Source: Nitratidesulfovibrio vulgaris str. Hildenborough
Lineage (GTDB): Bacteria; Desulfobacterota; Desulfovibrionia; Desulfovibrionales; Desulfovibrionaceae
Assembly: GCF_000195755.1 (NCBI RefSeq)
Contig: NC_002937.3
Coordinates: 2,820,001-2,852,000 of the forward strand
Reading direction: 5' to 3'
Length of the DNA stretch: 32,000 bases
Part shown: one piece after another, positions 350-31,088 of the stretch
How positions within the stretch are numbered: the first letter of the stretch is position 1
Layout: the number at the start of each line of letters is the position of its first letter
Position numbers and translations under genes: made by a program
The notes under the pieces: generated by a model
Told to the model about the DNA's origin: nothing
Seen by the model: the letters and a program-made list of their open reading frames with translations, nothing else
Databases searched by the model: none

Positions 350-535
350 ATGTACGTCAAAGCCGCAGACGGCCTCCGGGTGCCCATGGAAGAGCACCCG
401 CGCCGCTACATCGAAGAGACCCCGGTGCATGTGCCGGATACGGCCTACTACCGTCGCCGCATGGCGGACGGGGATTTGATCGCCTTACCCGAACCCGACA
501 GCGTTAACGAGGAGGCCCGCCGTGGGAAGCGCTAA
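350..535 (+). CDS. Small (61 aa) Mu-like conserved protein at the gp38 position, upstream of the sheath gene
   Basis: ATG at 350 in the frame of track ORF 167..535 (MYVKAADGLRVPMEE...). Tightly packed, overlapping the sheath GTG start by 14 nt. Position typical of the small ORF preceding sheath genes in Mu-like prophages. Confidence 0.5.
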   Translation: MYVKAADGLRVPMEEHPRRYIEETPVHVPDTAYYRRRMADGDLIALPEPDSVNEEARRGKR

Positions 536-1943
536 CGTCTCGTTCGACACCGTGCCCGCGTCCGTCCGCAAGCCGGGCAAGTACCTTGAATTCAACACCC
601 GCCTTGCCGTGCGCACCTTGCCCGCCAACGCCCAGCGGGTGCTCATCGTGGCGCAGGCCCTGCCCGGTGCCAGCCAGCCCGTGTTGCAGCCGGTGGACGT
701 GTTCTCCGATGTGGAGGCCCGCGCCCTCTTCGGTGAAGGCAGCGTGGCGCACCTGATGGCCCGTGCCGCCATCGTGGCCAATCCCTACATCTCCCTCGCC
801 GTCATGGGCGTGGCGGACGACGCGGCAGGCGTGGCCGCATCCGGCAGTGTGGCCGTGGGCGGCACCGCCGTGAGTTCGGGCGTGCTCTCCGTGCAGGTGG
901 GCACGGCCATGGTGCGCGTGGCCGTGGCGAAGGACGATGCCGCAGCCGCCATAGCCACGGCCTTGGCCGCCGCCTTCGCCGCCACGCGCGACCTGCCCGT
1001 CACCGCCGGGGCACAGGCCGGGACGGTGACGCTGACCGCCCGCAACAAGGGCACGCTGGCCAACGCCATCCCGCTTGCTGCGCACAGCACCGCGCAGGGC
1101 ATCACGGTGACGCTGACCCCCATGAGCGGCGGGCAGGCCGACCCCGACATCAAGCCCGCGCTGGCCGCCGTCTACAATGCCGGGCATCACGTCATCATCA
1201 GCCCCTACGGTTCGCAAGAGGCCCTCACCGCCTTGCGCGACCATCTGGACGGCGTCTCGCACGCCATGGAACAGCGCGGGGCCGTGGGCGTGTACTCCAC
1301 CACCGGCACGCTGGCGCAGGGCACCACCCTCGCCGGGCAGGTGAACGCCGGGCGCATCACCGGCGGACTGTTGCCGGGCACGGCCAGTCTGCCGTGCGAA
1401 GTGGCCGCCGCTTACGGGGCCGTCATCGCCAGCGAAGAAGACCCGGCCCGCCCGCTGAACACCTTGCCGCTCAAGGGCATCGCCCCGCCCCCCGTCGCGG
1501 TGCGCCTTGGCCGCATGGAGCAGGAGACGGCCCTGCACAACGGCGTCACCCCGCTGGAAGTGGGGCCGGGCGACGTGGTGCAGATAGTGCGCGCCGTCAC
1601 CACCTACACCCGCGACCCGCAGGGCATTGAAGACGTGGCCCTGCTGGACCTGACCACCATCCGCACGCTGGACTATGTGCGCCGCGCCGTGCGCGACCGC
1701 ATCAGCCTGCGCTTCCCGCGCGAGAAGCTTTCGGAACGCACGCCCCCCAAGGTGCGTAGCGAGATTCTCGACGTGCTGCTGAAGCTTGAAGAACTGGAAG
1801 TGGTGGAGGCGGTGCAGGCCAACCTTCCCGCACTCATCGTGGAACGCGATGGCCAAGACCCCAACCGGCTGAACGCCAAGATACCGGTCGACGTGGTGAA
1901 CGGGCTGCATGTGTTTGCGGGCCGCATCGACCTGCTTCTATAA
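522..1943 (+). CDS. Contractile tail sheath protein (Mu gpL-like)
   Basis: 473-aa ORF with a GTG start. Size and position (before tube, chaperone and tape measure) fit a sheath. N-terminus SFDTVPASVRKPGKYLEFN and C-terminal part LEELEVVE...INAKIPVDVVNGLHVFAGRIDL are typical of Mu/P2-type sheath proteins as I recall them. Confidence 0.88.
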   Translation: MGSANVSFDTVPASVRKPGKYLEFNTRLAVRTLPANAQRVLIVAQALPGASQPVLQPVDVFSDVEARALFGEGSVAHLMARAAIVANPYISLAVMGVADDAAGVAASGSVAVGGTAVSSGVLSVQVGTAMVRVAVAKDDAAAAIATALAAAFAATRDLPVTAGAQAGTVTLTARNKGTLANAIPLAAHSTAQGITVTLTPMSGGQADPDIKPALAAVYNAGHHVIISPYGSQEALTALRDHLDGVSHAMEQRGAVGVYSTTGTLAQGTTLAGQVNAGRITGGLLPGTASLPCEVAAAYGAVIASEEDPARPLNTLPLKGIAPPPVAVRLGRMEQETALHNGVTPLEVGPGDVVQIVRAVTTYTRDPQGIEDVALLDLTTIRTLDYVRRAVRDRISLRFPREKLSERTPPKVRSEILDVLLKLEELEVVEAVQANLPALIVERDGQDPNRLNAKIPVDVVNGLHVFAGRIDLLL

Positions 1944-1954
1944 TAATCGCCCCC

Positions 1955-2017
1955 TTGCCATGTGTAGCTTTTTGCGTATCTTATAGTCACTTTTACAAAC
2001 TACACATGGCAGGGAGG
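1955..2017 (+). promoter_or_regulatory. Putative promoter/operator and RBS of the low-GC cassette
   Basis: TTGCCA (1955-1960), 16-nt spacer, TATCTT (1977-1982). Perfect 12-bp inverted repeat TGCCATGTGTAG (1956-1967) / CTACACATGGCA (2000-2011) with a 32-nt AT-rich spacer. GGGAGG (2012-2017) lies 4 nt before ATG 2022. Confidence 0.35.
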
Positions 2018-2021
2018 CACT

Positions 2022-2849
2022 ATGAGTCAACATGCGACGTGGCGCGAAGAAATGGTCATCAACCTAACTGGGGGCATGGCTGATGAACATGAAATTGACG
2101 CCGGGGTGCTCTGTGAATCCTTGACTGGTTTGACTAAGCTCGCGGAGAAAACGCGAGCATCAATTTATAGAGATGCTAAGATTTCCATCAAAATAAAAGG
2201 TGGTTTTAAAGAAGGTTCATTCGATTACTCTATTGTTTTTGACATGTTTGCTGCTGTAGCCCCTGTTGCCCCTCAACTTGTCAAAACAATAAAGGAAGTT
2301 ATAGAATTCAGGAAGTTTTTGAATGGGGGAGAGCCTGTGAAAACTGAACCTGAAGCTAATAATAGTTCAAGAGTTGAAAACAATAGTGGCGCAACAATGG
2401 TCGTCCAAAACAGTACTATAATAATCAATAATAGCCCCTTAACAACAAAGGCACTTCAAAAGTTTTTTTCACCACTCGGCAGTGGAATAAATGCTTTTGA
2501 AGTAAGCGACAGCGAAGAAAAAAACGTTACAGTTGGCTCTCAAGAAAAGAATTTGTTCTTAGATACAACATCAAAAGAAGTAGATTCAAATGATTCTGAA
2601 AGAATTCTCGAAATTCTAACAGCTCAAATGGATGGAAAGCCAAACGGATGGCGCTTTTACGATGTTGAAGAAGAAATTGAATTTTCAGCAGGAGTTGCTG
2701 ACTCAAGTTTTCTTATGGCTGTAAATTCTGGTAAATATGGAATTCTTCGAGGAAGCCACGTATCCGCAACAGTCCGTACAAACAGGATGATAGTAGATGG
2801 CCGACGAAGAACAGAAAGAACAATAATTAGTCTTATTCCGATTGAATAA
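2022..2849 (+). CDS. Orphan 275-aa soluble protein in a low-GC accessory (moron-like) cassette; function unknown
   Basis: Clean ORF with its own SD and ATG. About 32-33% GC in hand-counted lines against about 65-75% in the flanks. A/T-rich codon usage. No hydrophobic segments. Two-part architecture joined by an N/S/T-rich linker (EANNSSRVENNSGATMVVQNSTIIINNSPLTT). I recognise no family. Confidence 0.8.
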   Translation: MSQHATWREEMVINLTGGMADEHEIDAGVLCESLTGLTKLAEKTRASIYRDAKISIKIKGGFKEGSFDYSIVFDMFAAVAPVAPQLVKTIKEVIEFRKFLNGGEPVKTEPEANNSSRVENNSGATMVVQNSTIIINNSPLTTKALQKFFSPLGSGINAFEVSDSEEKNVTVGSQEKNLFLDTTSKEVDSNDSERILEILTAQMDGKPNGWRFYDVEEEIEFSAGVADSSFLMAVNSGKYGILRGSHVSATVRTNRMIVDGRRRTERTIISLIPIE

Positions 2850-2868
2850 AGCAATACACCTCGAATCA

Positions 2869-2898
2869 AAGCCCCGCCACTGCGGGGCTTATCTTTTA
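2869..2898 (+). terminator. Rho-independent terminator of the low-GC cassette
   Basis: AAGCCCCGC (2869-2877), loop CACT, GCGGGGCTT (2882-2890), followed by ATCTTTTA. Confidence 0.7.
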
Positions 2899-2984
2899 TA
2901 TACTGAACTCCTTCCATATAGAGTGACGTTATATTCTAACATACCATACTCTGACATCAACAATGTAACGGGTAGGAGTATGCC

Positions 2985-3359
2985 ATGGCCCTGAAGGAAT
3001 ACCTCGGCGCAATCGTGCTGGAAGTGGACGGCAAGGAATACGAGGTCGAATCGGTAGACATCGACCACAAGTCAGGCCGCAAACTGGTGAAGACCATGAA
3101 CCGCAAGGGCAGGCCCAGCGGCTATGCCGAAGGCGTCCACGAATGGACGCTGAAGATATCCGCCCCCGTGCCCAAGGAAGGCGGCCCGGACTGGAACAGC
3201 ATCGTGGGCGCAAAGCTGACCATCTACCCGGTGACGCCCGGCGGCAAACGCACGTCGTACCTTGATTGCGTCGCCCTCGATGACGCCGACAAGTACAACG
3301 TGGACAACGAGGCGAAAGTGGATGTGACACTGGCGGCCATGGACAAGGTTGTAGAATAG
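2985..3359 (+). CDS. Tail tube protein (Mu gpM-like)
   Basis: 124-aa ORF with SD GGTAGGAG 2971-2978. Size and position between sheath and chaperone genes fit a tube protein. Somewhat more A/T at third positions than neighbouring phage genes. Confidence 0.8.
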   Translation: MALKEYLGAIVLEVDGKEYEVESVDIDHKSGRKLVKTMNRKGRPSGYAEGVHEWTLKISAPVPKEGGPDWNSIVGAKLTIYPVTPGGKRTSYLDCVALDDADKYNVDNEAKVDVTLAAMDKVVE

Positions 3360-3484: not shown

Positions 3485-3541
3485 GACAACGAGGCCAAGG
3501 TCGACGTGACGCTGGCGGCCATGGACAAGGTTGTAGAATAG
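3485..3541 (+). pseudogene. 57-bp relic of the 3' end of a second tail-tube allele (duplicate of 3303-3359)
   Basis: Both copies encode DNEAKVDVTLAAMDKVVE plus TAG. The 5 nucleotide differences (GCG/GCC, AAA/AAG, GTG/GTC, GAT/GAC, ACA/ACG) are all synonymous third-position changes. The relic frame is closed by TGA at 3464-3466 and similarity stops exactly at 3485. Confidence 0.85.
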
Positions 3542-3556
3542 CGAGGAGCACAGACC

Positions 3557-3886
3557 ATGAGCATGAAGAACGCCACCGGCAAGGGCACGCTGGCCATCGG
3601 CTACCGCGACGAGGCAGGCACCTGCCACAAGGACTTCGAGATGCGCCTTCCCACGCTGGAGGACATCGAAGAGGCCATAGCCGATGCGGGCGAAGGGGCC
3701 TGTCAGGCGCGTGTCAGCCGTCATGTATGGGCACGCACCATCACCCGCCTTGGCACCCTGCCTGCCGAGGCCATCGACGCCAGCCTTCTGGCAGGCCTTG
3801 CCGACGTGGAATACGGCCGCTTCGCCGATGTGGAGGCCAGCATCAGAAAAAAGCTGCTGGCCGAGAGCGAGAGCTCCGGCAGTTGA
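3557..3886 (+). CDS. Tail assembly chaperone, short form (Mu gp41 / P2 gpE analogue)
   Basis: 109-aa acidic ORF between the tube and tape-measure genes. Contains a slippery site near its 3' end. Confidence 0.8.
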   Translation: MSMKNATGKGTLAIGYRDEAGTCHKDFEMRLPTLEDIEEAIADAGEGACQARVSRHVWARTITRLGTLPAEAIDASLLAGLADVEYGRFADVEASIRKKLLAESESSGS

Positions 3887-4041
3887 GAGCGGCGGAACTG
3901 GCCCTAGTGCGTCACGGTTTCAGCCTTGCGGACATACGCAGCCTGACCGTGCCTGAACTGCAAAGCTACATCGACCTTCTGACGGGCCGCACCTCCACCG
4001 GAGGGCAACGCTTCGTCAACCGAAGGCTGAAGGGGAGATAG
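3557..4041 (+). CDS. Tail assembly chaperone, long form made by a programmed -1 frameshift at 3847-3853
   Basis: The -1 frame (track ORF 3727..4041) is open across the slippery site and continues 63 codons (…KKAAGRERELRQLRAAEL…RRLKGR) to TAG at 4041, 3 nt before the tape-measure ATG. This is the canonical G/GT or E/E' arrangement. Confidence 0.7.
3847..3853 (+). promoter_or_regulatory. -1 ribosomal frameshift slippery heptamer A_AAA_AAG
   Basis: Zero-frame codons are AGA AAA AAG (3845-3853), so the heptamer is phased as X_XXY_YYZ. Same heptamer as E. coli dnaX. Confidence 0.7.
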
Positions 4042-4044
4042 CGC

Positions 4045-5985
4045 ATGGGAGACATGGCCCTGCAACTGCGCCTGCAACTGCGCGACCAGATGGGCGCACG
4101 GGCCACCCGCGCCCTTGAGGACGTGCGCCGGGCCGCCGGGGGAGCCTCCACGGCGGCCTCGGCCCTCGGCCGTAACACGGCAGCCCTTGGCCGGGTCAAC
4201 TTCAACGGCATGGTGCAGGGGCTGAAGCGCGTGGAACAGGCGGCCACCGCTGCCATGCGTGGCCTGAAGCGCATGGGCGGCACGGCCTCCGAGGTCATGA
4301 AGGCGGCCGGTGGCGTCGGGGCCGGTGCCATGGCGGGCGGCTACGTCGCAGGCCGCGCCTTGGCCCCGGCCATAAGCTACGAATCGAAACTGGCCAGCAT
4401 GGCCAACGTGGCCTTCAACGACCGGGACGCCGCCGGGCGCATGGCGGGCATGAAGGAACTGGACGCCGCCGTGAAGCGCGCCACCGACGTGGGCGGCGGT
4501 TCGCGCGAACAGGCCGCCGATGCCCTGAACACCATGCTGGCCATGGGCATGAAGTCCGACACGGCCACGAACCTTCTGCCGCAGTTGCAGAAGGCCGCCA
4601 CCGCCTCCGGTGCGGACGTGAACGAGCTGGCCCAAGTGGTGATGAAGGGCATGGAACAGGGCTTCTTCACCGAGGCGCAGGTGGGCGAGGCCATCGACAA
4701 GGCGGTGAAGGCGGGCGAGGCCGGACAGTTCGAACTGAAGGACATGGCCCGCTGGCTGCCGCAAATCATGGCCAACGCCAAGGGCATGAAGGGCATGGCG
4801 GGTTACGAGGCCATCCTCGCCTCGTTGCAGGGCGTCTCCGTCGTCACCGGCACCAACGACCAGGCAGGCAACGCCCTGTTCAACCTGCTTGGCAAGGTCA
4901 CCAGTGCCGACACCGCACTGGACTTCAAGAAGCAGGGCATCGACCTGCACGGCACGCTGGCCAAGGCCACCGCCAACGGCCAGTTGCCGCTGGATGCCTT
5001 CGTGGAACTGGTCGAACGGCAGGTGGTGGGCAAGGACAAGCGCTTCCAGTCCATCAAGGCGCAGATGGCCACGGCCAAGGACGGCGAGAAGATGGCCCTC
5101 ATGGAACAGGCGGCCGACCTGTTGCAGGGTTCCGCCATAGGCAAGGTGGTGCAGGACCGCGAGGCGTCGCTGGCCCTCGCCGCCATGCTGACGCAGAAGC
5201 AGCGCATCGCCGAGGTCAAGGGCCAGCTTGGCGAAGCCCACGGCGCGGTGGATACCTCCTTCGCCGTCATGTCGAACACGTCCGACTTCAAGCTACAGCA
5301 GGCGAAGAACGAGGTGGAGTCAGCCCGCTCGCGGATGCTGGCAGACGTGAAGCCCGCACTGGACGGGGCCGTGGCCGGGGCCACCGGCCTTGCCAGCCAG
5401 TTCCCCAAGCTGACCACCGTGGCGATGGAAGCCTCTACCGCCATAGGTGTCATGGCGGCGGCCGCTGCCGCCTATGGCGGGGCGGGTGTGCTCATGGGGC
5501 GCGGCGGGGCTGGTGGCGTGGGCAGGCCCCGCGATGAACACGGCCGGTTCATCAAGCCCGAAGCGGGCGCGGCAGGTTCCGCCACCGGACGCGCGGGCGC
5601 GTTCAAGGCCGGGGCGAAGGCTGGCGGCCTGCTGGCCTTGGCCGGGGCGGGGGTGAACGCCGTCATGACCGAATCCAGCGACATGAGCCGGGCCGAGAAG
5701 AACGCGGCCCACATGGGCACGGCAGGCGGTGCAGTGGGCACGATGGCGGGCACCGCCGTGGGCGCGGCGCTGGGGTCCGTTGTCCCCGTGGTGGGCACGG
5801 CCATTGGCGGTGTGCTGGGGGGCATGGCGGGTGGCTGGCTTGGCGACATGCTGGGCCAGAAGCTTGGCGACCTCATCTTCAAGGACGAATCCACCGTGCG
5901 CGTCGAGAGCGTGGTGCAGGTGGACGGCCGCGAACTGGCCCGCGCCGTGAATGAGGTGAATGGGCGCGACGCCGCACGTCGTTAA
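4045..5985 (+). CDS. Tail tape measure protein
   Basis: 646-aa Ala/Gly-rich ORF directly after the chaperone pair. C-terminal glycine-zipper-like hydrophobic stretch (GTAGGAVGTMAGTAVGAALGSVVPVVGTAIGGVLGGMAGGWLG), typical of tape measure proteins. Confidence 0.88.
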   Translation: MGDMALQLRLQLRDQMGARATRALEDVRRAAGGASTAASALGRNTAALGRVNFNGMVQGLKRVEQAATAAMRGLKRMGGTASEVMKAAGGVGAGAMAGGYVAGRALAPAISYESKLASMANVAFNDRDAAGRMAGMKELDAAVKRATDVGGGSREQAADALNTMLAMGMKSDTATNLLPQLQKAATASGADVNELAQVVMKGMEQGFFTEAQVGEAIDKAVKAGEAGQFELKDMARWLPQIMANAKGMKGMAGYEAILASLQGVSVVTGTNDQAGNALFNLLGKVTSADTALDFKKQGIDLHGTLAKATANGQLPLDAFVELVERQVVGKDKRFQSIKAQMATAKDGEKMALMEQAADLLQGSAIGKVVQDREASLALAAMLTQKQRIAEVKGQLGEAHGAVDTSFAVMSNTSDFKLQQAKNEVESARSRMLADVKPALDGAVAGATGLASQFPKLTTVAMEASTAIGVMAAAAAAYGGAGVLMGRGGAGGVGRPRDEHGRFIKPEAGAAGSATGRAGAFKAGAKAGGLLALAGAGVNAVMTESSDMSRAEKNAAHMGTAGGAVGTMAGTAVGAALGSVVPVVGTAIGGVLGGMAGGWLGDMLGQKLGDLIFKDESTVRVESVVQVDGRELARAVNEVNGRDAARR

Positions 5986-7345: not shown

Positions 7346-8489
7346 CCGCAGGCCCGACGAGACCATGCCCGCAGGCGACGCACGGCAGGCCGTCACCCTC
7401 ATGGTGGGCGGACGCGAGCACCGCGACTGGACGAGCTATGAAGTGGACAGCGACCTCATGACCCCGGCGGACGCATGGCGCGTCACGCTTGGCATCCCCG
7501 CCGACGCCGTTCCGGCCACGGTGCGCCCGTGGGAGCCGGTGCAACTGGCCGTGGGCGGCGAGGTGGTGCTTTCGGGCCGCATCGACAGGGTGGAACGCAC
7601 CATCCGCAAGGGTGAGCTTTCCCTTGCCATCAGCGGGCGCGACGGGGCCGCCGTCTTGGTGGACTGTTCCGCGCCCATCTTCACCTCACGGCAGGTGAGC
7701 GTGGCAGAGGCCGTGGCGCACATCGTGCGGCCCTTGGGCATTGCGCGGGTGCGCGTGGCCCCCGGTGCCGGACATGCGACCGGGCACACTGCCGGGCACG
7801 AGAAGGTGGCCATCGAACCGGGCATGACCGCATGGGACGCCCTGCAACAGGTGGCAGAGGCCAACGGCATGTGGCCGTGGTTCACCCCTGACGGCACCTT
7901 GGTGGTGGGAGGCCCCGACTACACCGCGCCCCCCGTGGGCGGCCTCGTGCTGCGCATGGACGGCACGCAGAACAACGTGCTGGCCCTCTCCGTGCGCGAC
8001 GGCGTGGAAGAACGCTTCTCCGAGGTGACGGTGCTTGGCCAGAGTCACGGCACCGAAGACGCCGAAGGGGCCAACGCCCTGCGCGCCATAGCCCGCGACA
8101 CCACGGCGCAGTGGCACCGCCCCCGCGTTGTGGTAGAGGCGGAATGCGACACCGCCGACATGGCCCGCCGCCGGGCACGCAAGCTGCTTGCCGACGGCAG
8201 ACTGGCCGCCTTCGAGATGCGGGCCACCGTGCGCGGGCACCGGGCCAGCGGCCCCACGGGCGATGGCGTGCTGTGGCAACCCGGCCAGCGGGTGCGGGTG
8301 CTGTCAGAACCGCACGGCATCGACGGCGTGTTCTTCCTCACCCGGCGCACGTTCATGGGCGGCCGCGACCGGGGGCAGGTGACGGAACTGACGCTGAAGG
8401 AGGACGGCGTGTGGCTGCCCGACGTGGGCAAGCGCCGCAAGCGCAAGAAGCAAGATGGCGAGACAGCCATGGAGGTGGTCGACCTATGA
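7335..8489 (+). CDS. Baseplate hub protein (Mu gpP / gp44, gpD-like)
   Basis: 384-aa ORF overlapping the gpN stop. Synteny between gpN and gp45. Basic C-terminal tail KRRKRKKQ. An alternative start at ATG 7365 is possible. Confidence 0.82.
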   Translation: MPSDRRPDETMPAGDARQAVTLMVGGREHRDWTSYEVDSDLMTPADAWRVTLGIPADAVPATVRPWEPVQLAVGGEVVLSGRIDRVERTIRKGELSLAISGRDGAAVLVDCSAPIFTSRQVSVAEAVAHIVRPLGIARVRVAPGAGHATGHTAGHEKVAIEPGMTAWDALQQVAEANGMWPWFTPDGTLVVGGPDYTAPPVGGLVLRMDGTQNNVLALSVRDGVEERFSEVTVLGQSHGTEDAEGANALRAIARDTTAQWHRPRVVVEAECDTADMARRRARKLLADGRLAAFEMRATVRGHRASGPTGDGVLWQPGQRVRVLSEPHGIDGVFFLTRRTFMGGRDRGQVTELTLKEDGVWLPDVGKRRKRKKQDGETAMEVVDL

Positions 8490-9112
8490 TGCAGCAGGTG
8501 AACCGGGCCATAGCCCGGACGTTGGCCACCATCCGGCAGGCGTTCCGCGCCCGCCTCACCGGGCTGGACACCACGCCCGGCGTCCAGTTGGCGCAGGCCG
8601 GGGGGCTGGCAGGCGAACAGGTGCAGGCGTCCGAACTGTTCCAGCACTTCGGCTTCACCTCCGCCCCGCCCGAAGGCACCCAGTGCATCGTCCTGCCCCT
8701 AGGCGGCAAGACGGCCCATAGCGTGGTGGTGGCCACAGAGAACGGGGCCTACCGGGTGCAGGCCCTGCAAGGCGGCGAGGTGTGCATCTATAACCAGTGG
8801 GGCGCGAAGATAACCCTGAAGAAGGAGAAGATTGTGGAGGTGGATTGCGACCACTTCCGGGTGGCCGCCAAGGAATCCATCACGATGGACACCAAGCGCT
8901 GGCAGGCCACCGCCACCGAGGGCACCGCCTTCACCTCGCCTTCGGTTGCCATTGGCGGCATGGGCGGGCTGAAGGCACAGGCAAGACTCGACGCCGACCT
9001 GCAAACGACAGGCGACGTGACCTCACAGGGAGACCACGTCGCCGGGGGCATCAGCTTGCGTCATCACCGCCATCCGGGGGATTCGGGCGGGACGACTGGA
9101 GAATCTTTATAA
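8486..9112 (+). CDS. Baseplate spike/assembly protein (Mu gp45, P2 gpV-like)
   Basis: ATG 8486 overlaps the gpP stop (ATGA). MMQQVNRAIARTL...ELFQHFGFTSAPPEG is typical of gp45/gpV. C-terminal RHHRHPGDSGGTTG is a His-rich spike-tip motif. The last few codons (GAA TCT TTA TAA) lie in the AT-rich insert. Confidence 0.85.
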   Translation: MMQQVNRAIARTLATIRQAFRARLTGLDTTPGVQLAQAGGLAGEQVQASELFQHFGFTSAPPEGTQCIVLPLGGKTAHSVVVATENGAYRVQALQGGEVCIYNQWGAKITLKKEKIVEVDCDHFRVAAKESITMDTKRWQATATEGTAFTSPSVAIGGMGGLKAQARLDADLQTTGDVTSQGDHVAGGISLRHHRHPGDSGGTTGESL

Positions 9113-9506
9113 GGCTGAAGGTGGACAGGAAGAAATCGAGCTTCACAAAGAACAATCCTATGGCAACACATATCGCACCAGAGACTACGCTCTCACCGAG
9201 GGCTATAAGCCCACCACTGCTGTTAGTGCTGTTCCACCACTGATGCGGCTTCATCTCCACAATTACATAGACGTTTGATATCACAATCAAGCATCCGACA
9301 ATAAGTAAGCATAGTATTGCACCATTTGCCACTACATTTAACAAAGAAGAAAAGGATGTTGTTTTTTCATTATGTTCTATTTTCATATCATTACTAGACA
9401 TTTCTCTTAAATCTTTATTTTCATACGTTTCTGCCTTTTGGCGTAGCTGATGGTTTCCTTTGATAGCCTTCTCTTTGATAATTTTATATTCAGTTTGCAC
9501 AGGCAC
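9051..9506 (-). CDS. Small membrane protein (up to 151 aa, 2 predicted TM segments) in a low-GC antisense cassette; function unknown
   Basis: Only long ORF in the AT-rich block from ~9095 to ~9510 (about 32% GC in a hand-counted line). Charged N-terminus, then hydrophobic segments LLNVVANGAILCLLIVGCLIVISNVYVIV and LIALGESVVSGAICVAIGLFFV. Start is uncertain: GTG 9506, GTG 9500 (7 nt after GGAG) or ATG 9401. The last ~14 codons run antisense into the gp45 3' end. Confidence 0.62.
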   Translation of the reverse strand: MPVQTEYKIIKEKAIKGNHQLRQKAETYENKDLREMSSNDMKIEHNEKTTSFSSLLNVVANGAILCLLIVGCLIVISNVYVIVEMKPHQWWNSTNSSGGLIALGESVVSGAICVAIGLFFVKLDFFLSTFSLIKILQSSRPNPPDGGDDAS

Positions 9507-29553: not shown

Positions 29554-30711
29554 TTACGGGCAGACGGATTCGGTGAAGACGAACTCGCCCTTGTCGCTGA
29601 TCTTGACGACAACGGCGCACTTGATGGGGTCGCCTTCGGCGTCGAACTTCATCTTGCCGGTGATGCCGTCGAAGGTGGTGATGGCCGAGATGTTGTCGCG
29701 GATGAGCTTGCGCATCTTGCGGACATCCTTCTCGACCTTGCCGCCGTTCTGGATGGCGGTCAGCACGATGCGGGTGGCGTCCCAGGTCAGCGCGGCCACG
29801 TCGTCGGGGATGTAGCCGTAGCGGTTGGTGTACTTGTCGATGAATTCCTTGGTGGCGCCGGTGGCACCAGCCGCGGCGTAGTGGGTCGAGAAGAACTGGC
29901 CCACGCAATCCTTGCCGCACAGGGTCATGAGTTCGGCAGAACCCCACGCGTCGGAACCCATGAAGGGGCCCTTCCAGCCAAGGTCATGCGCCTGCTTCAC
30001 GATGAGTGCCACGATGTTGTAGTTCTCGGGCAGGAAGATGAAGTCGGGCTTGGCTGCGAGCAGCTTGGTCAGCTGGGCCGAGAAGTCCTGGTCCTTGGTG
30101 CCGTGCGACTCGAAGGCGACCACGGTGCCCTTGCCGTGCTTCTCTTCCCACTTCACGCGGAAGATGTCGGCAAGGCCCTTGGAGTAGTCGTTGGAGACGT
30201 CGAACATGACGGCGGCGGTCTTGGCGCCGAACTGCTTCGAGGCGAAGTTCACGACCACAGGAGCCTGGAAGGGGTCGAGGAAGGCGGCGCGGAACACCCA
30301 GGGACGCCCCTTGGTGGTGTCGGGGTTGGTGGACCACGGCGAGATGAGCGGGGTCTCGTTGTCGTCGGCGACGCCGCCAGCGGGCACAGCCTGCTTGGAG
30401 GAGTTGGGGCCGACGATGGCGAGCACCTGATCGCGCTCGATGAGCTTGAGTGCCGCGTTGACGGCCGACTCAGGCTTGGACTCGTTGTCCTCATACACGA
30501 ATTCGAGCATGTACTTCTTGCCGCCCACTTCGAGACCGCCCTTGGCGTTGATCTCGTCGCGCAGCATCTCGGCGGCGAACTTGGAGGCCTCGCCGACCTT
30601 GGGGATGTCACCGGTGAGCGGGATGTCGAAGCCTATCTTGATGGTATCGGCCGCATACGCTGCCGAAGCCATCAGAAGGAGCATCAGCATGGACAGAACG
30701 GTTTTCCTCAT
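29554..30711 (-). CDS. livK: Periplasmic branched-chain amino acid-binding protein (LivK/LivJ family)
   Basis: 385 aa. Signal peptide MRKTVLSMLMLLLMASAAYA. IKIGFDIPLTGDIPKVGE...AIVGPNSS is typical of type I periplasmic binding proteins of the Leu/Ile/Val family. First gene of the operon. Confidence 0.88.
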   Translation of the reverse strand: MRKTVLSMLMLLLMASAAYAADTIKIGFDIPLTGDIPKVGEASKFAAEMLRDEINAKGGLEVGGKKYMLEFVYEDNESKPESAVNAALKLIERDQVLAIVGPNSSKQAVPAGGVADDNETPLISPWSTNPDTTKGRPWVFRAAFLDPFQAPVVVNFASKQFGAKTAAVMFDVSNDYSKGLADIFRVKWEEKHGKGTVVAFESHGTKDQDFSAQLTKLLAAKPDFIFLPENYNIVALIVKQAHDLGWKGPFMGSDAWGSAELMTLCGKDCVGQFFSTHYAAAGATGATKEFIDKYTNRYGYIPDDVAALTWDATRIVLTAIQNGGKVEKDVRKMRKLIRDNISAITTFDGITGKMKFDAEGDPIKCAVVVKISDKGEFVFTESVCP

Positions 30712-31088
30712 CGCTAGCCTCCTCGCAAGGTGATGAATGAAATGACGGTTCGCAATTAGTACAGCAATCAGCGGGAGATGGGAACATCATTTATCAATTT
30801 TGTCCTTATTGTAAACAGCATATAAAATCAATATGTTATAACTTGACATTATTGTTATAATAAAATACGCGTATTTTCAGTATGTTAACTTTGTAGCATT
30901 AGATTACGGTCTGTTTTAATTCCATGCATACTGAATGACAAAACAGTCGTTTTTTAATATATTGATTTCAGTGCAGTTATGGAATGACAAGCCACCACCG
31001 AGATTTCTGTGCAACCGTTTTAGTGGTCTGAAAAACTACCATTTACAGCATCGTCAAACGATTAAACGCGCAAACACACAGGGTCGCC
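30712..31088. promoter_or_regulatory. AT-rich divergent control region between the liv operon and the epimerase-like gene
   Basis: About 375 bp that is far more AT-rich than anything else in the host part. Perfect TTGACA at 30843-30848. Repeated TGTTATAA (30834-30841, 30853-30860) and TATGTTA (30832-30838, 30881-30887). No convincing complete promoter could be assembled by eye. Confidence 0.45.

What the first reader, a model, noticed from the sequence alone, without database searches (positions are those of the whole stretch)
1944..2984. Self-contained low-GC gene cassette (275-aa orphan protein) between the tail sheath and tail tube genes
In Mu-type late operons the sheath and tube genes are normally adjacent. 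Here they are separated by about 1 kb of foreign DNA, with about 32-33% GC in hand-counted lines against about 65-75% in the flanks. The insert looks like an independent transcription unit: a sigma70-like promoter, a 12-bp inverted-repeat operator, a strong SD, an 828-nt ORF and a good intrinsic terminator. That is the classic moron layout, expressed from the repressed prophage. The protein is soluble and has two parts joined by an N/S/T-rich linker. I recognise no enzyme, DNA-binding or structural-virion motif in it. Prophage morons in such positions often encode anti-phage defence, superinfection exclusion or assembly-blocking functions. This is my best candidate for an undescribed function.
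Basis: partly seen in the sequence, partly recalled or inferred. Interest (0 to 1): 0.8.

Follow-up and report, generated by a model that had tools for sequence, protein, structure and literature searches.

The report
Prophage defence-family gene in tail hotspot
The low-GC insert between the tail sheath and tail tube genes is a real, self-contained accessory gene, but it is not an orphan: it belongs to the protein family of mycobacteriophage MichelleMyBell gp29, which is reported to help a prophage protect its host against other phages by an unknown mechanism.

Summary
A 1,041-bp insert (1944-2984) separates a Mu-type sheath gene from the tube gene. Its GC is 0.40 and GC3 0.30, against 0.88 and 0.81 in the flanks. 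It carries a 275-aa ORF (2022-2849), an inverted repeat, an SD and a terminator.

About 58 related prophages have the two genes 15-190 bp apart (two more: 299 and 442 bp). Kilobase-sized insertions occur only in Desulfovibrionaceae Mu-like prophages, where the site is a variable cargo hotspot.

The "orphan" claim is wrong. The protein matches phrog_3243 (2.4e-68), NCBIfam NF053583 (121 bits, cut-off 60) and PADLOC candidate PDC-S42 (9.4e-25). At least 373 clusters (50% identity) are related.

MichelleMyBell gp29 matches the same three models and aligns full-length (hhalign 98.6%). Secondary sources assign that prophage's abortive-infection-like defence to gp29 plus the small membrane protein gp30. 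The window gene has no adjacent gp30-like partner.

Relatives sit at varied places in prophages and beside a DISARM-like system. One survives in Desulfovibrio piger after the prophage decayed. This argues against a virion role.

The inverted repeat extends to about 18 bp. It pairs a conserved -35-like box with the SD and covaries across homologues.

Verdict: a new member of a known kind, mechanism unknown.

The parts
522..1943 (+). Mu-type tail sheath gene (473 aa), left flank of the insertion
   Evidence: phrog_165 5.8e-175; Pfam Phage_sheath_1 and Phage_sheath_1C. GC 0.698, GC3 0.878.
1944..2984 (+). Inserted low-GC cargo cassette occupying the sheath-tube junction
   Evidence: GC 0.402. The junction is 15-190 bp in about 58 related prophages. 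The nearest sheath relatives in the tree have empty junctions.
1949..1967 (+). 5' arm of the conserved inverted repeat (anti-SD). It contains the -35-like box TTGCCA at 1955-1960.
   Evidence: Fold: -31.9 kcal/mol, z = -5.3. The core CCUUGCC:GGCAAGG pairing is present in 12 homologous leaders and the distal pairs covary. CTTG is invariant in 11 aligned leaders.
1977..1982 (+). -10-like hexamer TATCTT, 16 nt after TTGCCA, lying in the hairpin loop
   Evidence: Consensus scan, 9 of 12 positions. In most of the 10 leaders scanned a hexamer with A at position 2 and T at position 6 lies 17 nt after the TTGnnn box; the match is weak in L108 and L002. Not mapped experimentally.
2000..2018 (+). 3' arm of the inverted repeat. 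It contains the Shine-Dalgarno GGGAGG at 2012-2017.
   Evidence: at least 3 of the 4 SD bases are paired in the minimum-energy fold of all 11 leaders.
2022..2849 (+). 275-aa protein of the MichelleMyBell gp29 / PDC-S42 / phrog_3243 / NF053583 family, in a solo form without a gp30-like partner
   Evidence: phrog_3243 2.4e-68; PDC-S42 9.4e-25; NF053583 121.3 bits (cut-off 60); DUF7946 27.4 bits. hhalign of the family alignment against gp29: 98.6%, E 9.9e-16. AlphaFold2 pLDDT 93.1.
2869..2900 (+). Intrinsic-terminator-like hairpin (2869-2890) with a T-rich tail, at the right edge of the cassette
   Evidence: 9-pair stem with 7 G-C pairs, loop of 4, tail ATCTTTTATA. A GC-rich hairpin lies 35-95 nt before the tube start in 9 of the 10 filled junctions examined; none is evident in L047.
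2985..3359 (+). Tail tube gene (124 aa), right flank
   Evidence: phrog_185 5.8e-29. GC3 0.808.

Best explanation
The insert is a moron, an independently expressed accessory cassette. It sits in a cargo hotspot that Desulfovibrionaceae Mu-like prophages have between their tail sheath and tail tube genes.

Its single gene encodes a soluble, acidic, non-enzyme-like protein of about 280 aa with a three-part fold. The protein belongs to the same family as mycobacteriophage MichelleMyBell gp29. By homology and context, the most likely role is prophage-mediated, post-injection (abortive-infection-type) protection of the lysogen against unrelated phages.

Shown:
- family membership;
- hotspot position;
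- foreign composition;
- the conserved leader and the terminator.

Inferred:
- The gene is transcribed in the lysogen from a sigma70-type promoter whose -35 box lies in the 5' arm of the leader.
- The C-terminal beta-barrel (OB-like topology) binds a phage-derived ligand.
- Protein activity or overdose is harmful to the cell.
- The anti-SD hairpin keeps translation low.

Unlike MichelleMyBell gp29, this gene has no adjacent small membrane partner, so it would act alone or with an unlinked factor.
For: Family:
- The window protein matches phrog_3243 at 2.4e-68, PDC-S42 at 9.4e-25 and NF053583 at 121 bits, cut-off 60.
- MichelleMyBell gp29 matches the same models at 7.3e-81, 1.6e-16 and 181 bits.
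- hhalign of the 86-sequence family alignment against gp29 gives 98.6%, E 9.9e-16 over 266 columns. The invariant W210, D227 and F230 are kept.

Function of gp29, from secondary sources:
- The MichelleMyBell prophage lowers Tweety plating by 4-5 orders of magnitude, and Tweety gp54 counters it (PMC8549241).
- Adsorption and injection proceed but phage production fails (PMC6426606).
- gp29 is described as toxic and gp30 as a membrane protein (PMC11856565).

Accessory, not structural:
- Empty junctions of 15-190 bp occur in about 58 related prophages, including the nearest sheath relatives.
- Family members sit after the sheath in three separate sub-lineages. Others lie upstream of lysis genes (L098, L114), between tape measure and baseplate (L095), between endolysin and integrase in phage A2, next to the integrase in Listeria phage 188, on Pseudomonas megaplasmids, and beside DISARM-like genes on an integrase island.
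- Other cargo at the same junction includes PDC-S31 (7.5e-38) and a DUF4145 protein.
- In D. piger the gene stays intact between 57 codons of sheath 3' end and a frameshifted tube remnant, with the rest of the prophage gone. This was seen on at least 24 contigs.

Expression module:
- The leader is conserved with covariation. In L083 it also precedes a different cargo gene.
- The covariance model hits only filled junctions.
- Terminators follow the gene.

Not an enzyme by sequence:
- The only invariant residues are W210 and D227; most highly conserved positions are hydrophobic or glycine.
- All three parts are acidic, with pI about 5.
Against: - No experiment exists on this protein or on any proteobacterial or Desulfovibrio member. 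PDC-S42 is an explicitly untested candidate (10.1101/2024.01.29.577857).
- Identity to gp29 is only about 17% at the profile level, so function may have drifted.
- The gp30-like membrane partner is absent here, and the system as catalogued needs both genes.
The gene assignment rests on secondary sources.
- No solved structure resembles the model (best PDB E 5.8e-03, partial OB-fold hits), so the mechanism is unsupported by structure.
- An acidic OB-like domain is not typical of nucleic-acid binders.
- The promoter is not mapped.
- A terminator in the middle of the tail operon raises the unresolved question of how the tube gene is expressed.
Confidence: 0.6

Rival explanations
1. It is a virion or tail-assembly accessory protein, as the NCBIfam name 'putative phage structural protein' implies. 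On this reading it is placed between sheath and tube because it acts on the tail.
For: - The gene lies inside the tail module on the same strand as the late genes.
- Homologues with only 34-48% identity occupy the same sheath-downstream position in several Mu-like prophages.
- In Snodgrassella the homologue is also inside a tail module.
- NF053583 carries that name.
Against: - The nearest sheath relatives lack it entirely, with gaps of 15-27 bp.
- Its position is not syntenic across phages: it is found near lysis genes, the integrase and the tape measure.
- It occurs on plasmids and on a DISARM-adjacent island.
- It is retained in D. piger after loss of the whole prophage.
- It has its own leader and terminator, and GC3 of 0.30 against 0.88.
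- The family member MichelleMyBell gp29 lies in the lysogenically expressed region and is linked to defence (PMC9262239, PMC11856565).
Confidence: 0.05
2. It is a lysogenic-conversion or counter-defence gene with a role other than protecting the host from phages. For example, it could inhibit a host defence system or alter host physiology.
For: - It is a small, acidic, non-enzymatic protein, as many anti-defence proteins are.
- Genes embedded in DISARM, BREX or RM loci need not be defences themselves (10.1101/2024.01.29.577857).
- No phenotype is known for any proteobacterial member.
Against: - Anti-defence genes are normally early genes without their own terminator.
- Homologues sit in lysogeny modules next to the integrase and repressor.
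- The cassette persists in D. piger without a phage, which points to benefit for the cell.
- The one member with literature is assigned to defence.
Confidence: 0.15
3. On regulation only: the inverted repeat is a DNA operator for a dimeric or looping repressor that overlaps the promoter. On this reading it is not an RNA hairpin.
For: - A perfect 12-bp palindrome brackets the promoter-like site.
- Both arms are conserved in sequence, TTGCC...GGCAA.
- The covariance model also scores the minus strand.
- C.A mismatches occur 5 times in the core.
Against: - The arm centres lie about 50 bp apart, far more than in a usual operator.
- The 3' arm always contains the SD, and at least 3 of its 4 bases are paired in all 11 leaders.
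- Wobble G.U pairs (12 in the core) outnumber C.A mismatches (5).
- The distal stem covaries while the sequence changes completely between lineages: CCGGAA/UUCCGG against AUGUGUAG/CUACACAU. One protein would have to follow these changes.
Confidence: 0.3
4. It is a functionless hitch-hiker, foreign DNA in the process of decay.
For: - The strongly foreign composition suggests recent arrival.
- One relative (L072) is frameshifted.
Against: - The ORF is intact and the predicted fold is highly confident.
- The family has at least 373 clusters of uniform length.
- Invariant residues are retained.
- Intact copies are kept in decayed prophage remnants.
Confidence: 0.05

Closest known systems
Mycobacteriophage MichelleMyBell gp29 (DefenseFinder system MMB_gp29_gp30; Dedrick et al. 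2017, known here through PMC8549241, PMC6426606 and PMC11856565)
   Same: - Both match the same curated families: phrog_3243, NF053583 and the PDC-S42 model.
- They align over the full length (hhalign 98.6%), have similar lengths (275 against 310 aa) and keep W210, D227 and F230.
- Both are prophage genes placed outside the core modules, in a variable region.
   Different: - Profile-level identity is only about 17%, and the host phylum differs.
- MichelleMyBell gp29 is followed by the overlapping gene 30, a 67-aa protein with two predicted transmembrane segments. The window gene has no such partner.
- Location differs: sheath-tube junction of a Mu-like myovirus, against lysis-integrase region of a siphovirus.
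PADLOC phage defence candidate PDC-S42 (Payne et al. preprint 10.1101/2024.01.29.577857)
   Same: - Full-length match to model PDLC05015 (9.4e-25).
- Single-gene layout.
- A 53%-identical relative lies beside DISARM-like genes, in line with how PDCs were found.
   Different: PDC-S42 is listed as untested, and no paper found names it. Searches show that it overlaps the MichelleMyBell gp29 family; no paper found here reports this.
NCBIfam NF053583 'LAPAL motif-containing putative phage structural protein', PHROG 3243 and Pfam DUF7946
   Same: The window protein passes the NF053583 cut-off (121 against 60 bits) and matches phrog_3243 over its whole length.
   Different: - The evidence here speaks against the 'structural' label.
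- DUF7946 matches only residues 12-45, at the threshold (27.4 against 27 bits).
- The motif region reads VAPVAPQL here.
Defence hotspots of temperate phages: P2-like and P4 hotspots, the central variable region of Cluster N mycobacteriophages, and lambda-type morons (recalled from own knowledge; Cluster N per PMC9262239)
   Same: - It is a fixed site between conserved genes where related phages carry different cargo, including defence candidates such as PDC-S42, PDC-S31 and a DUF4145 protein.
- The cargo is AT-rich and has its own promoter and terminator.
   Different: - The site lies inside the late tail operon, between sheath and tube, of Mu-like prophages of Desulfovibrionaceae.
- A shared promoter and anti-SD leader precedes different cargo genes (window and L083).

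Membership tests
phrog_3243 / NCBIfam NF053583 (the family that contains MichelleMyBell gp29) | Full-length match above the curated cut-off | tested here: met
   phrog_3243 2.4e-68, residues 2-274 against profile positions 3-284 of 293. NF053583 121.3 bits against a cut-off of 60. gp29 itself scores 7.3e-81 and 181.4 bits.
phrog_3243 / NCBIfam NF053583 (the family that contains MichelleMyBell gp29) | Family-invariant residues and uniform length of about 275-310 aa | tested here: met
   W210 and D227 are invariant; F230, G17, S66, G102, F212 and A223 are conserved in at least 90% of 86 sequences. W, D and F align with gp29.
DefenseFinder system MMB_gp29_gp30 | gp29 homologue | tested here: met
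hhalign 98.6%, E 9.9e-16. The DefenseFinder model itself was not available to run.
DefenseFinder system MMB_gp29_gp30 | Adjacent gp30-like small membrane protein | tested here: not met
   No ORF of 25 aa or more with a hydrophobic segment lies within 250 nt before to 450 nt after the stop codon, in the window or its Desulfovibrio relatives. Such a partner is present in MichelleMyBell, Vibrio PE001, a Pseudomonas megaplasmid and pAQU2.
DefenseFinder system MMB_gp29_gp30 | Expression in the lysogen and reduced plating of heterotypic phages | not testable with these tools
   This needs RNA-seq of a lysogen and plaque assays.
PADLOC PDC-S42 | Match to a PDC-S42 model as a single gene | tested here: met
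   PDLC05015 9.4e-25, residues 9-270 against positions 4-285 of 302. Neighbouring cargo varies between loci, so there is no conserved partner.
PADLOC PDC-S42 | Association with known defence systems (guilt by embedding) | tested here: inconclusive
   Met for relative P0004, which lies next to a C5 methylase, a DUF1998/MZB protein, a helicase and a NERD protein. In the window the gene has no defence neighbour. Other phages carry PDC-S31 or a DUF4145 protein at the same site.
Moron (independently expressed accessory cassette in a prophage) | Lies between genes that are adjacent in related phages, and has foreign composition | tested here: met
   Gaps of 15-190 bp in about 58 relatives; tree; GC3 0.30 against 0.88 and 0.81.
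Moron (independently expressed accessory cassette in a prophage) | Own promoter and terminator | tested here: inconclusive
   The terminator is clear. The promoter-like boxes recur at fixed spacing in the homologous leaders, including one on a non-phage island, but no transcription start has been mapped.
Pfam DUF7946 | Score above the gathering threshold across the domain | tested here: inconclusive
   27.4 bits against 27, covering only residues 12-45 of the protein and positions 2-35 of 183 in the profile. 26 of 86 family members match.

The most novel reading that the evidence does not exclude
The conserved leader may be a two-state switch that gives the prophage self-immunity.

- The cassette's own promoter has its -35 box inside the 5' (anti-SD) arm. 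The lysogenic transcript would therefore start in the loop, lack the anti-SD and be translated.
- Late-operon read-through from the sheath gene would carry both arms, so the SD would be sequestered. The abortive-infection protein would then not be made while the prophage itself is replicating.
- The same leader precedes a different cargo gene in L083, so it would be a general expression and silencing module for cargo at this hotspot.
Probability: 0.2. Interest if true: 0.6.

Novelty: new member of a known kind. Interest (0 to 1): 0.4.

Why it matters
- It corrects an annotation. One family appears under three names: 'putative phage structural protein' (NCBIfam), untested candidate PDC-S42 (PADLOC) and 'unknown function' (PHROGs). 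That family contains MichelleMyBell gp29, which the literature assigns to a tested prophage defence.
- It extends that family from Actinobacteria to Desulfovibrionaceae, Gammaproteobacteria, Firmicutes and Bifidobacterium, with at least 373 clusters at 50% identity.
- It defines a cargo hotspot inside the tail operon of gut Desulfovibrio and Bilophila-type Mu-like prophages. The hotspot has a shared promoter/anti-SD leader and right-edge hairpins, which could guide searches for further cargo.
- The fold has no solved relative and the mechanism is unknown. A solo member in a simple cassette, together with a domesticated copy in D. piger, gives tractable material for working it out.

Tried and rejected
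Searches that found nothing or too little:
- tblastn of the window protein against 50,697 phage records gave no match. A more central family member, P0091, was needed.
- Pattern scans of genome contigs failed with the family alignments, and the single protein found no relative. Viral contigs and metagenome contigs gave only 2 and 5 loci.
- The word-indexed search with the 86-sequence alignment returned only 9 proteins.
- The PDB sequence search found only a chance WRF repeat match to designed 'Cake' proteins.
- The PDB fold search had no hit at E <= 0.001. The best were partial OB-fold hits (ExoVII, RPA, Teb1) and M20 dimerisation domains. BFVD gave only uncharacterised phage proteins.
- Rfam gave nothing above threshold in 1800-3100.
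- Literature searches for PDC-S42, DUF7946 and 'LAPAL motif' returned 0 papers. The PDC preprint's supplements do not mention S42.
- Dedrick et al. 2017 and Hatfull 2020 were not held.

Ideas tested and dropped:
- Nucleic-acid binding by the OB-like domain was weakened, because all three parts are acidic.
- The low-GC 151-aa membrane protein at 9051-9506 was considered as the missing gp30-like partner. It has no homologue in any other locus.
- Target-site duplications at the insert edges: only a short T(A/G)TAA resemblance was seen, which is not convincing.
- Read-through against own-promoter SD accessibility gave mixed results. The short isoform is clearly more open in 5 of 10 leaders.
- The count of G.U against A.C mismatches (12 against 5 in the core) does not settle RNA against DNA.
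Full report
**1. What is in the sequence**

Window 1944-2984 separates a tail sheath gene (522..1943; phrog_165, 5.8e-175) from a tail tube gene (2985..3359; phrog_185, 5.8e-29). A tail assembly chaperone gene follows at 3557..3886.

The insert has GC 0.402. Its only long ORF (2022..2849, 275 aa) has GC 0.393 and GC3 0.297. The sheath has GC3 0.878 and the tube 0.808.

Upstream of the ORF is a perfect 12-bp inverted repeat, 1956-1967 / 2000-2011. As RNA it extends to 18 pairs (1949-1967 with 2000-2018) and takes in the SD GGGAGG (2012-2017). Its energy is -31.9 kcal/mol, z = -5.3, and none of 200 shuffles folds as well.

A promoter-like TTGCCA-16-TATCTT (1955-1982) lies across the 5' arm and the loop. 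A terminator-like hairpin (2869-2890, 9 pairs, T-rich tail) follows the stop codon.

**2. The junction is normally empty and is a hotspot in one clade**

I fetched 80 loci through the sheath protein and located the tube gene in each.

- About 58 loci have the two genes 15-190 bp apart; two more have gaps of 299 and 442 bp.
- The window's nearest sheath relatives (L010, L012, L013, L017, L070; 66-70% identity) have gaps of 15-27 bp.
- In those relatives the sheath stop codon runs straight into the tube ribosome-binding site.

Kilobase-sized insertions (1.0-4.6 kb, low GC) occur only in Desulfovibrionaceae phages. In a neighbour-joining tree of sheath proteins, homologues of the window ORF occupy this site in three separate sub-lineages:

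- window/L103;
- L092 with L100/L101;
- a gut Desulfovibrio clade.

These are interleaved with empty junctions and with junctions holding other cargo. That other cargo includes:

- a PDC-S31/DUF2971 protein (7.5e-38);
- a DUF4145 protein with a weak PD-T7-4 match;
- Rha-type regulators (Pfam Phage_pRha);
- a lipoprotein-like ORF;
- a recurrent 205-aa protein of unknown family.

**3. The protein is not an orphan**

It matches four curated models:

| Model | Score |
|---|---|
| phrog_3243 | 2.4e-68, full length |
| NCBIfam NF053583 | 121.3 bits, cut-off 60 |
| PADLOC PDC-S42 | 9.4e-25, full length |
| Pfam DUF7946 | 27.4 bits, at threshold, N-terminus only |

An exhaustive search found 373 clusters (50% identity) at E <= 0.001, almost all 275-310 aa long. 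In an 86-sequence alignment W210 and D227 are invariant, and F230, F212, A223, G17, S66 and G102 are nearly so.

**4. Link to a studied protein**

A tblastn search with a more central member (P0091) found the family in several places:

- Lactobacillus phage A2, ORF19, between endolysin and integrase;
- Listeria phage vB_LmoS_188, ORF27, next to the integrase and an ORF annotated 'putative superinfection immunity protein';
- Bifidobacterium phages;
- Mycobacterium abscessus prophages;
- Pseudomonas megaplasmids;
- a Vibrio prophage whose record labels the gene 'MMB_gp29_gp30__gp29'.

I fetched mycobacteriophage MichelleMyBell (KF986246). Its gp29 (310 aa) lies between the lysis cassette and the integrase. 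It matches phrog_3243 at 7.3e-81, NF053583 at 181.4 bits and PDC-S42 at 1.6e-16. It aligns with the family profile over 266 columns (hhalign 98.6%, E 9.9e-16), with the W, D and F positions conserved. The window protein and gp29 are therefore members of one family.

According to the papers I could read:

- The MichelleMyBell prophage reduces plating of phage Tweety by four to five orders of magnitude, and Tweety gp54 is a tunable counter-defence (PMC8549241).
- The system behaves like abortive infection, with adsorption and injection intact (PMC6426606).

The primary paper was not available to me.

PDC-S42 itself is one of 145 untested candidates, found because members are embedded in BREX, DISARM or type I RM loci (10.1101/2024.01.29.577857). 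In line with this, a 53%-identical relative (P0004) lies beside a C5 methylase, a DUF1998/MZB protein, a large helicase and a NERD protein on an integrase/AlpA island.

**5. Differences from MichelleMyBell**

gp30 is a 67-aa protein with two hydrophobic segments. Its gene overlaps the end of gene 29. A small membrane ORF also follows the homologue in:

- Vibrio PE001 (83 aa);
- a Pseudomonas megaplasmid (84 aa, visibly similar to the Vibrio one);
- pAQU2 (132 aa).

No such ORF follows the gene in the window, its Desulfovibrio relatives, phage A2 or Listeria phage 188. The window gene is thus a solo form, which fits PADLOC's single-gene model but fails the two-gene definition of the DefenseFinder system.

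**6. Structure**

AlphaFold2 with the family alignment gives a confident model (pLDDT 93.1, pTM 0.80) with three parts:

- an alpha/beta N-terminal part (about residues 1-100);
- a middle part (about 107-180), whose Asn/Ser/Thr-rich stretch forms beta-strands in blocks of mean pLDDT 96-97, so it is not a linker;
- a C-terminal part (185-273) with the strand-strand-strand-helix-strand-strand order of an OB fold, which holds the invariant residues.

No solved structure matches at E <= 0.001. The best partial hits are OB folds of ExoVII, RPA and Teb1. BFVD returns only uncharacterised phage proteins.

All three parts are acidic, and apart from D227 the most conserved positions are hydrophobic or glycine residues. 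I therefore infer a binding or sensing protein rather than an enzyme. This is inference only.

**7. Evidence against a virion role**

The NCBIfam name suggests a structural protein. Five observations speak against it:

- absence from the nearest relatives;
- non-syntenic positions across phages;
- presence on plasmids and on a defence-type island;
- its own leader and terminator;
- a remnant in Desulfovibrio piger.

In that remnant, 57 codons of sheath 3' end, an intact homologue (P0160, 40% identity), a hairpin and a frameshifted tube 5' fragment lie between chromosomal genes and a tRNA gene. The rest of the prophage is gone. This was seen on at least 24 contigs.

**8. The leader**

Eleven homologous leaders share the following layout:

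- CCTTGCC, with CTTG invariant;
- a -10-like hexamer 16-17 nt after the TTGnnn box, clear in most leaders and weak in some;
- a 3' arm GGCAAGGAG that is both the partner of the 5' arm and the SD.

Seven of eight leaders fold far better than shuffles, with z from -3.6 to -8.5. L100 is the exception at -1.8.

In a lock-step table the 10-bp core is present in all 12 leaders. The distal stem changes sequence while staying paired, for example A-U, G-C and C-G at one position. The closest relative (L108) shows an A-U to G-C double change relative to the window.

A covariance model built from six leaders finds the window (E 0.0099), L108 and L083, but nothing in the empty junctions across 1.19 Mb. 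In L083 the same leader precedes a different, 398-aa cargo gene. It is also present on the non-phage island L002. It therefore behaves as an expression module for cargo.

The -35-like box stays constant in sequence although pairing alone would allow it to vary. This argues for a dual role as promoter element and anti-SD.

Whether the repeat acts as RNA or as a DNA operator is not settled. G.U pairs outnumber C.A mismatches 12 to 5 in the core, which is suggestive but not decisive.

I tested the idea that only late-operon read-through transcripts carry the anti-SD. The result was mixed: the predicted short transcript has a clearly more open SD in 5 of 10 leaders.

**9. Open point**

Nine of the ten filled junctions examined end with a GC-rich hairpin 35-95 nt before the tube start codon; L047 shows none. 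How late transcription reaches the tube gene past this hairpin is unexplained. The T-tracts are mostly interrupted, so partial read-through is possible.

**10. Verdict**

- The gene is a new, solo member of the MichelleMyBell gp29 / PDC-S42 family, placed in a previously undescribed sheath-tube cargo hotspot of Desulfovibrionaceae Mu-like prophages.
- The function is probably prophage-mediated defence (confidence about 0.6).
- The mechanism is unknown for the whole family.
- Interest is moderate (0.4). It does unify three database entries with a studied defence protein and shows a conserved regulatory leader worth testing.

Noticed in passing
window 9051-9506 (- strand): This is a second low-GC island (GC 0.44 in 9001-9500). 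It encodes a 151-aa protein with two strongly hydrophobic segments, on the opposite strand between baseplate-module genes. It looks like another moron. No homologue was found in any fetched locus.
   Followed up: partly
window 30500-31000: A third low-GC stretch (0.45) lies at the start of an ABC-type substrate-binding protein gene (29554..30711, - strand). It may be host DNA beyond the prophage end.
   Followed up: no
L110-L113, about 7690-9420 (Desulfovibrio piger metagenome contigs): This is a prophage remnant: 57 codons of sheath 3' end, an intact family member (P0160), a hairpin and a frameshifted tube 5' fragment, next to a tRNA gene and flanked by EamA and PPDK-like chromosomal genes. 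It was seen on at least 24 contigs.
   Followed up: partly
L083 7475-9588: The same promoter/anti-SD leader as in the window precedes an unrelated 398-aa ORF with no family match. That ORF is followed by a very low-GC (0.28) PDC-S31/DUF2971 gene and a Mu F-like fragment.
   Followed up: partly
Filled junctions: window 2869-2900; L001, L006, L008, L084, L049, L083, L104 and L107, 35-60 nt before the tube ATG: Related GC-rich hairpins (core GCCAC-N-GTGGC) with interrupted T-tracts mark the right edge of the hotspot. How late transcription passes them to reach the tube gene is unexplained.
   Followed up: partly
L118 6870-7121; L120 7917-8171: Small proteins with an N-terminal transmembrane segment follow the family gene in a Vibrio prophage and in Pseudomonas megaplasmids. 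They resemble each other (VILEIENEDGSWDKTSV against IVIRVKGTDGQVRETTV). This may be a conserved gp30-like partner in Gammaproteobacteria.
   Followed up: partly
L006/L009 (6856-7473 / 3536-4153, -), L047 7559-8164, L072 9109-9750, L084 9086-9703: A 201-213-aa protein (MMENYPQPCVDLVLSEEF...) recurs on the minus strand in the hotspot. It has no Pfam or PADLOC match.
   Followed up: partly
L095-L097 2962-3480 (Snodgrassella E217-like prophage): A P22_AR_N antirepressor-domain gene lies between the sheath-like (E217_gp31) and tube-like (E217_Gp32) genes. Sheath-tube cargo is therefore not limited to Mu-like phages. The family member there lies between the tape measure region and the baseplate.
   Followed up: no
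L072 7520-8396 and 10030-11722: The family gene is split by a frameshift, and three partial or complete copies of a Rha-type regulator gene (similar to the Phage_pRha gene of L001) follow it. This is a decaying or rearranged hotspot.
   Followed up: no
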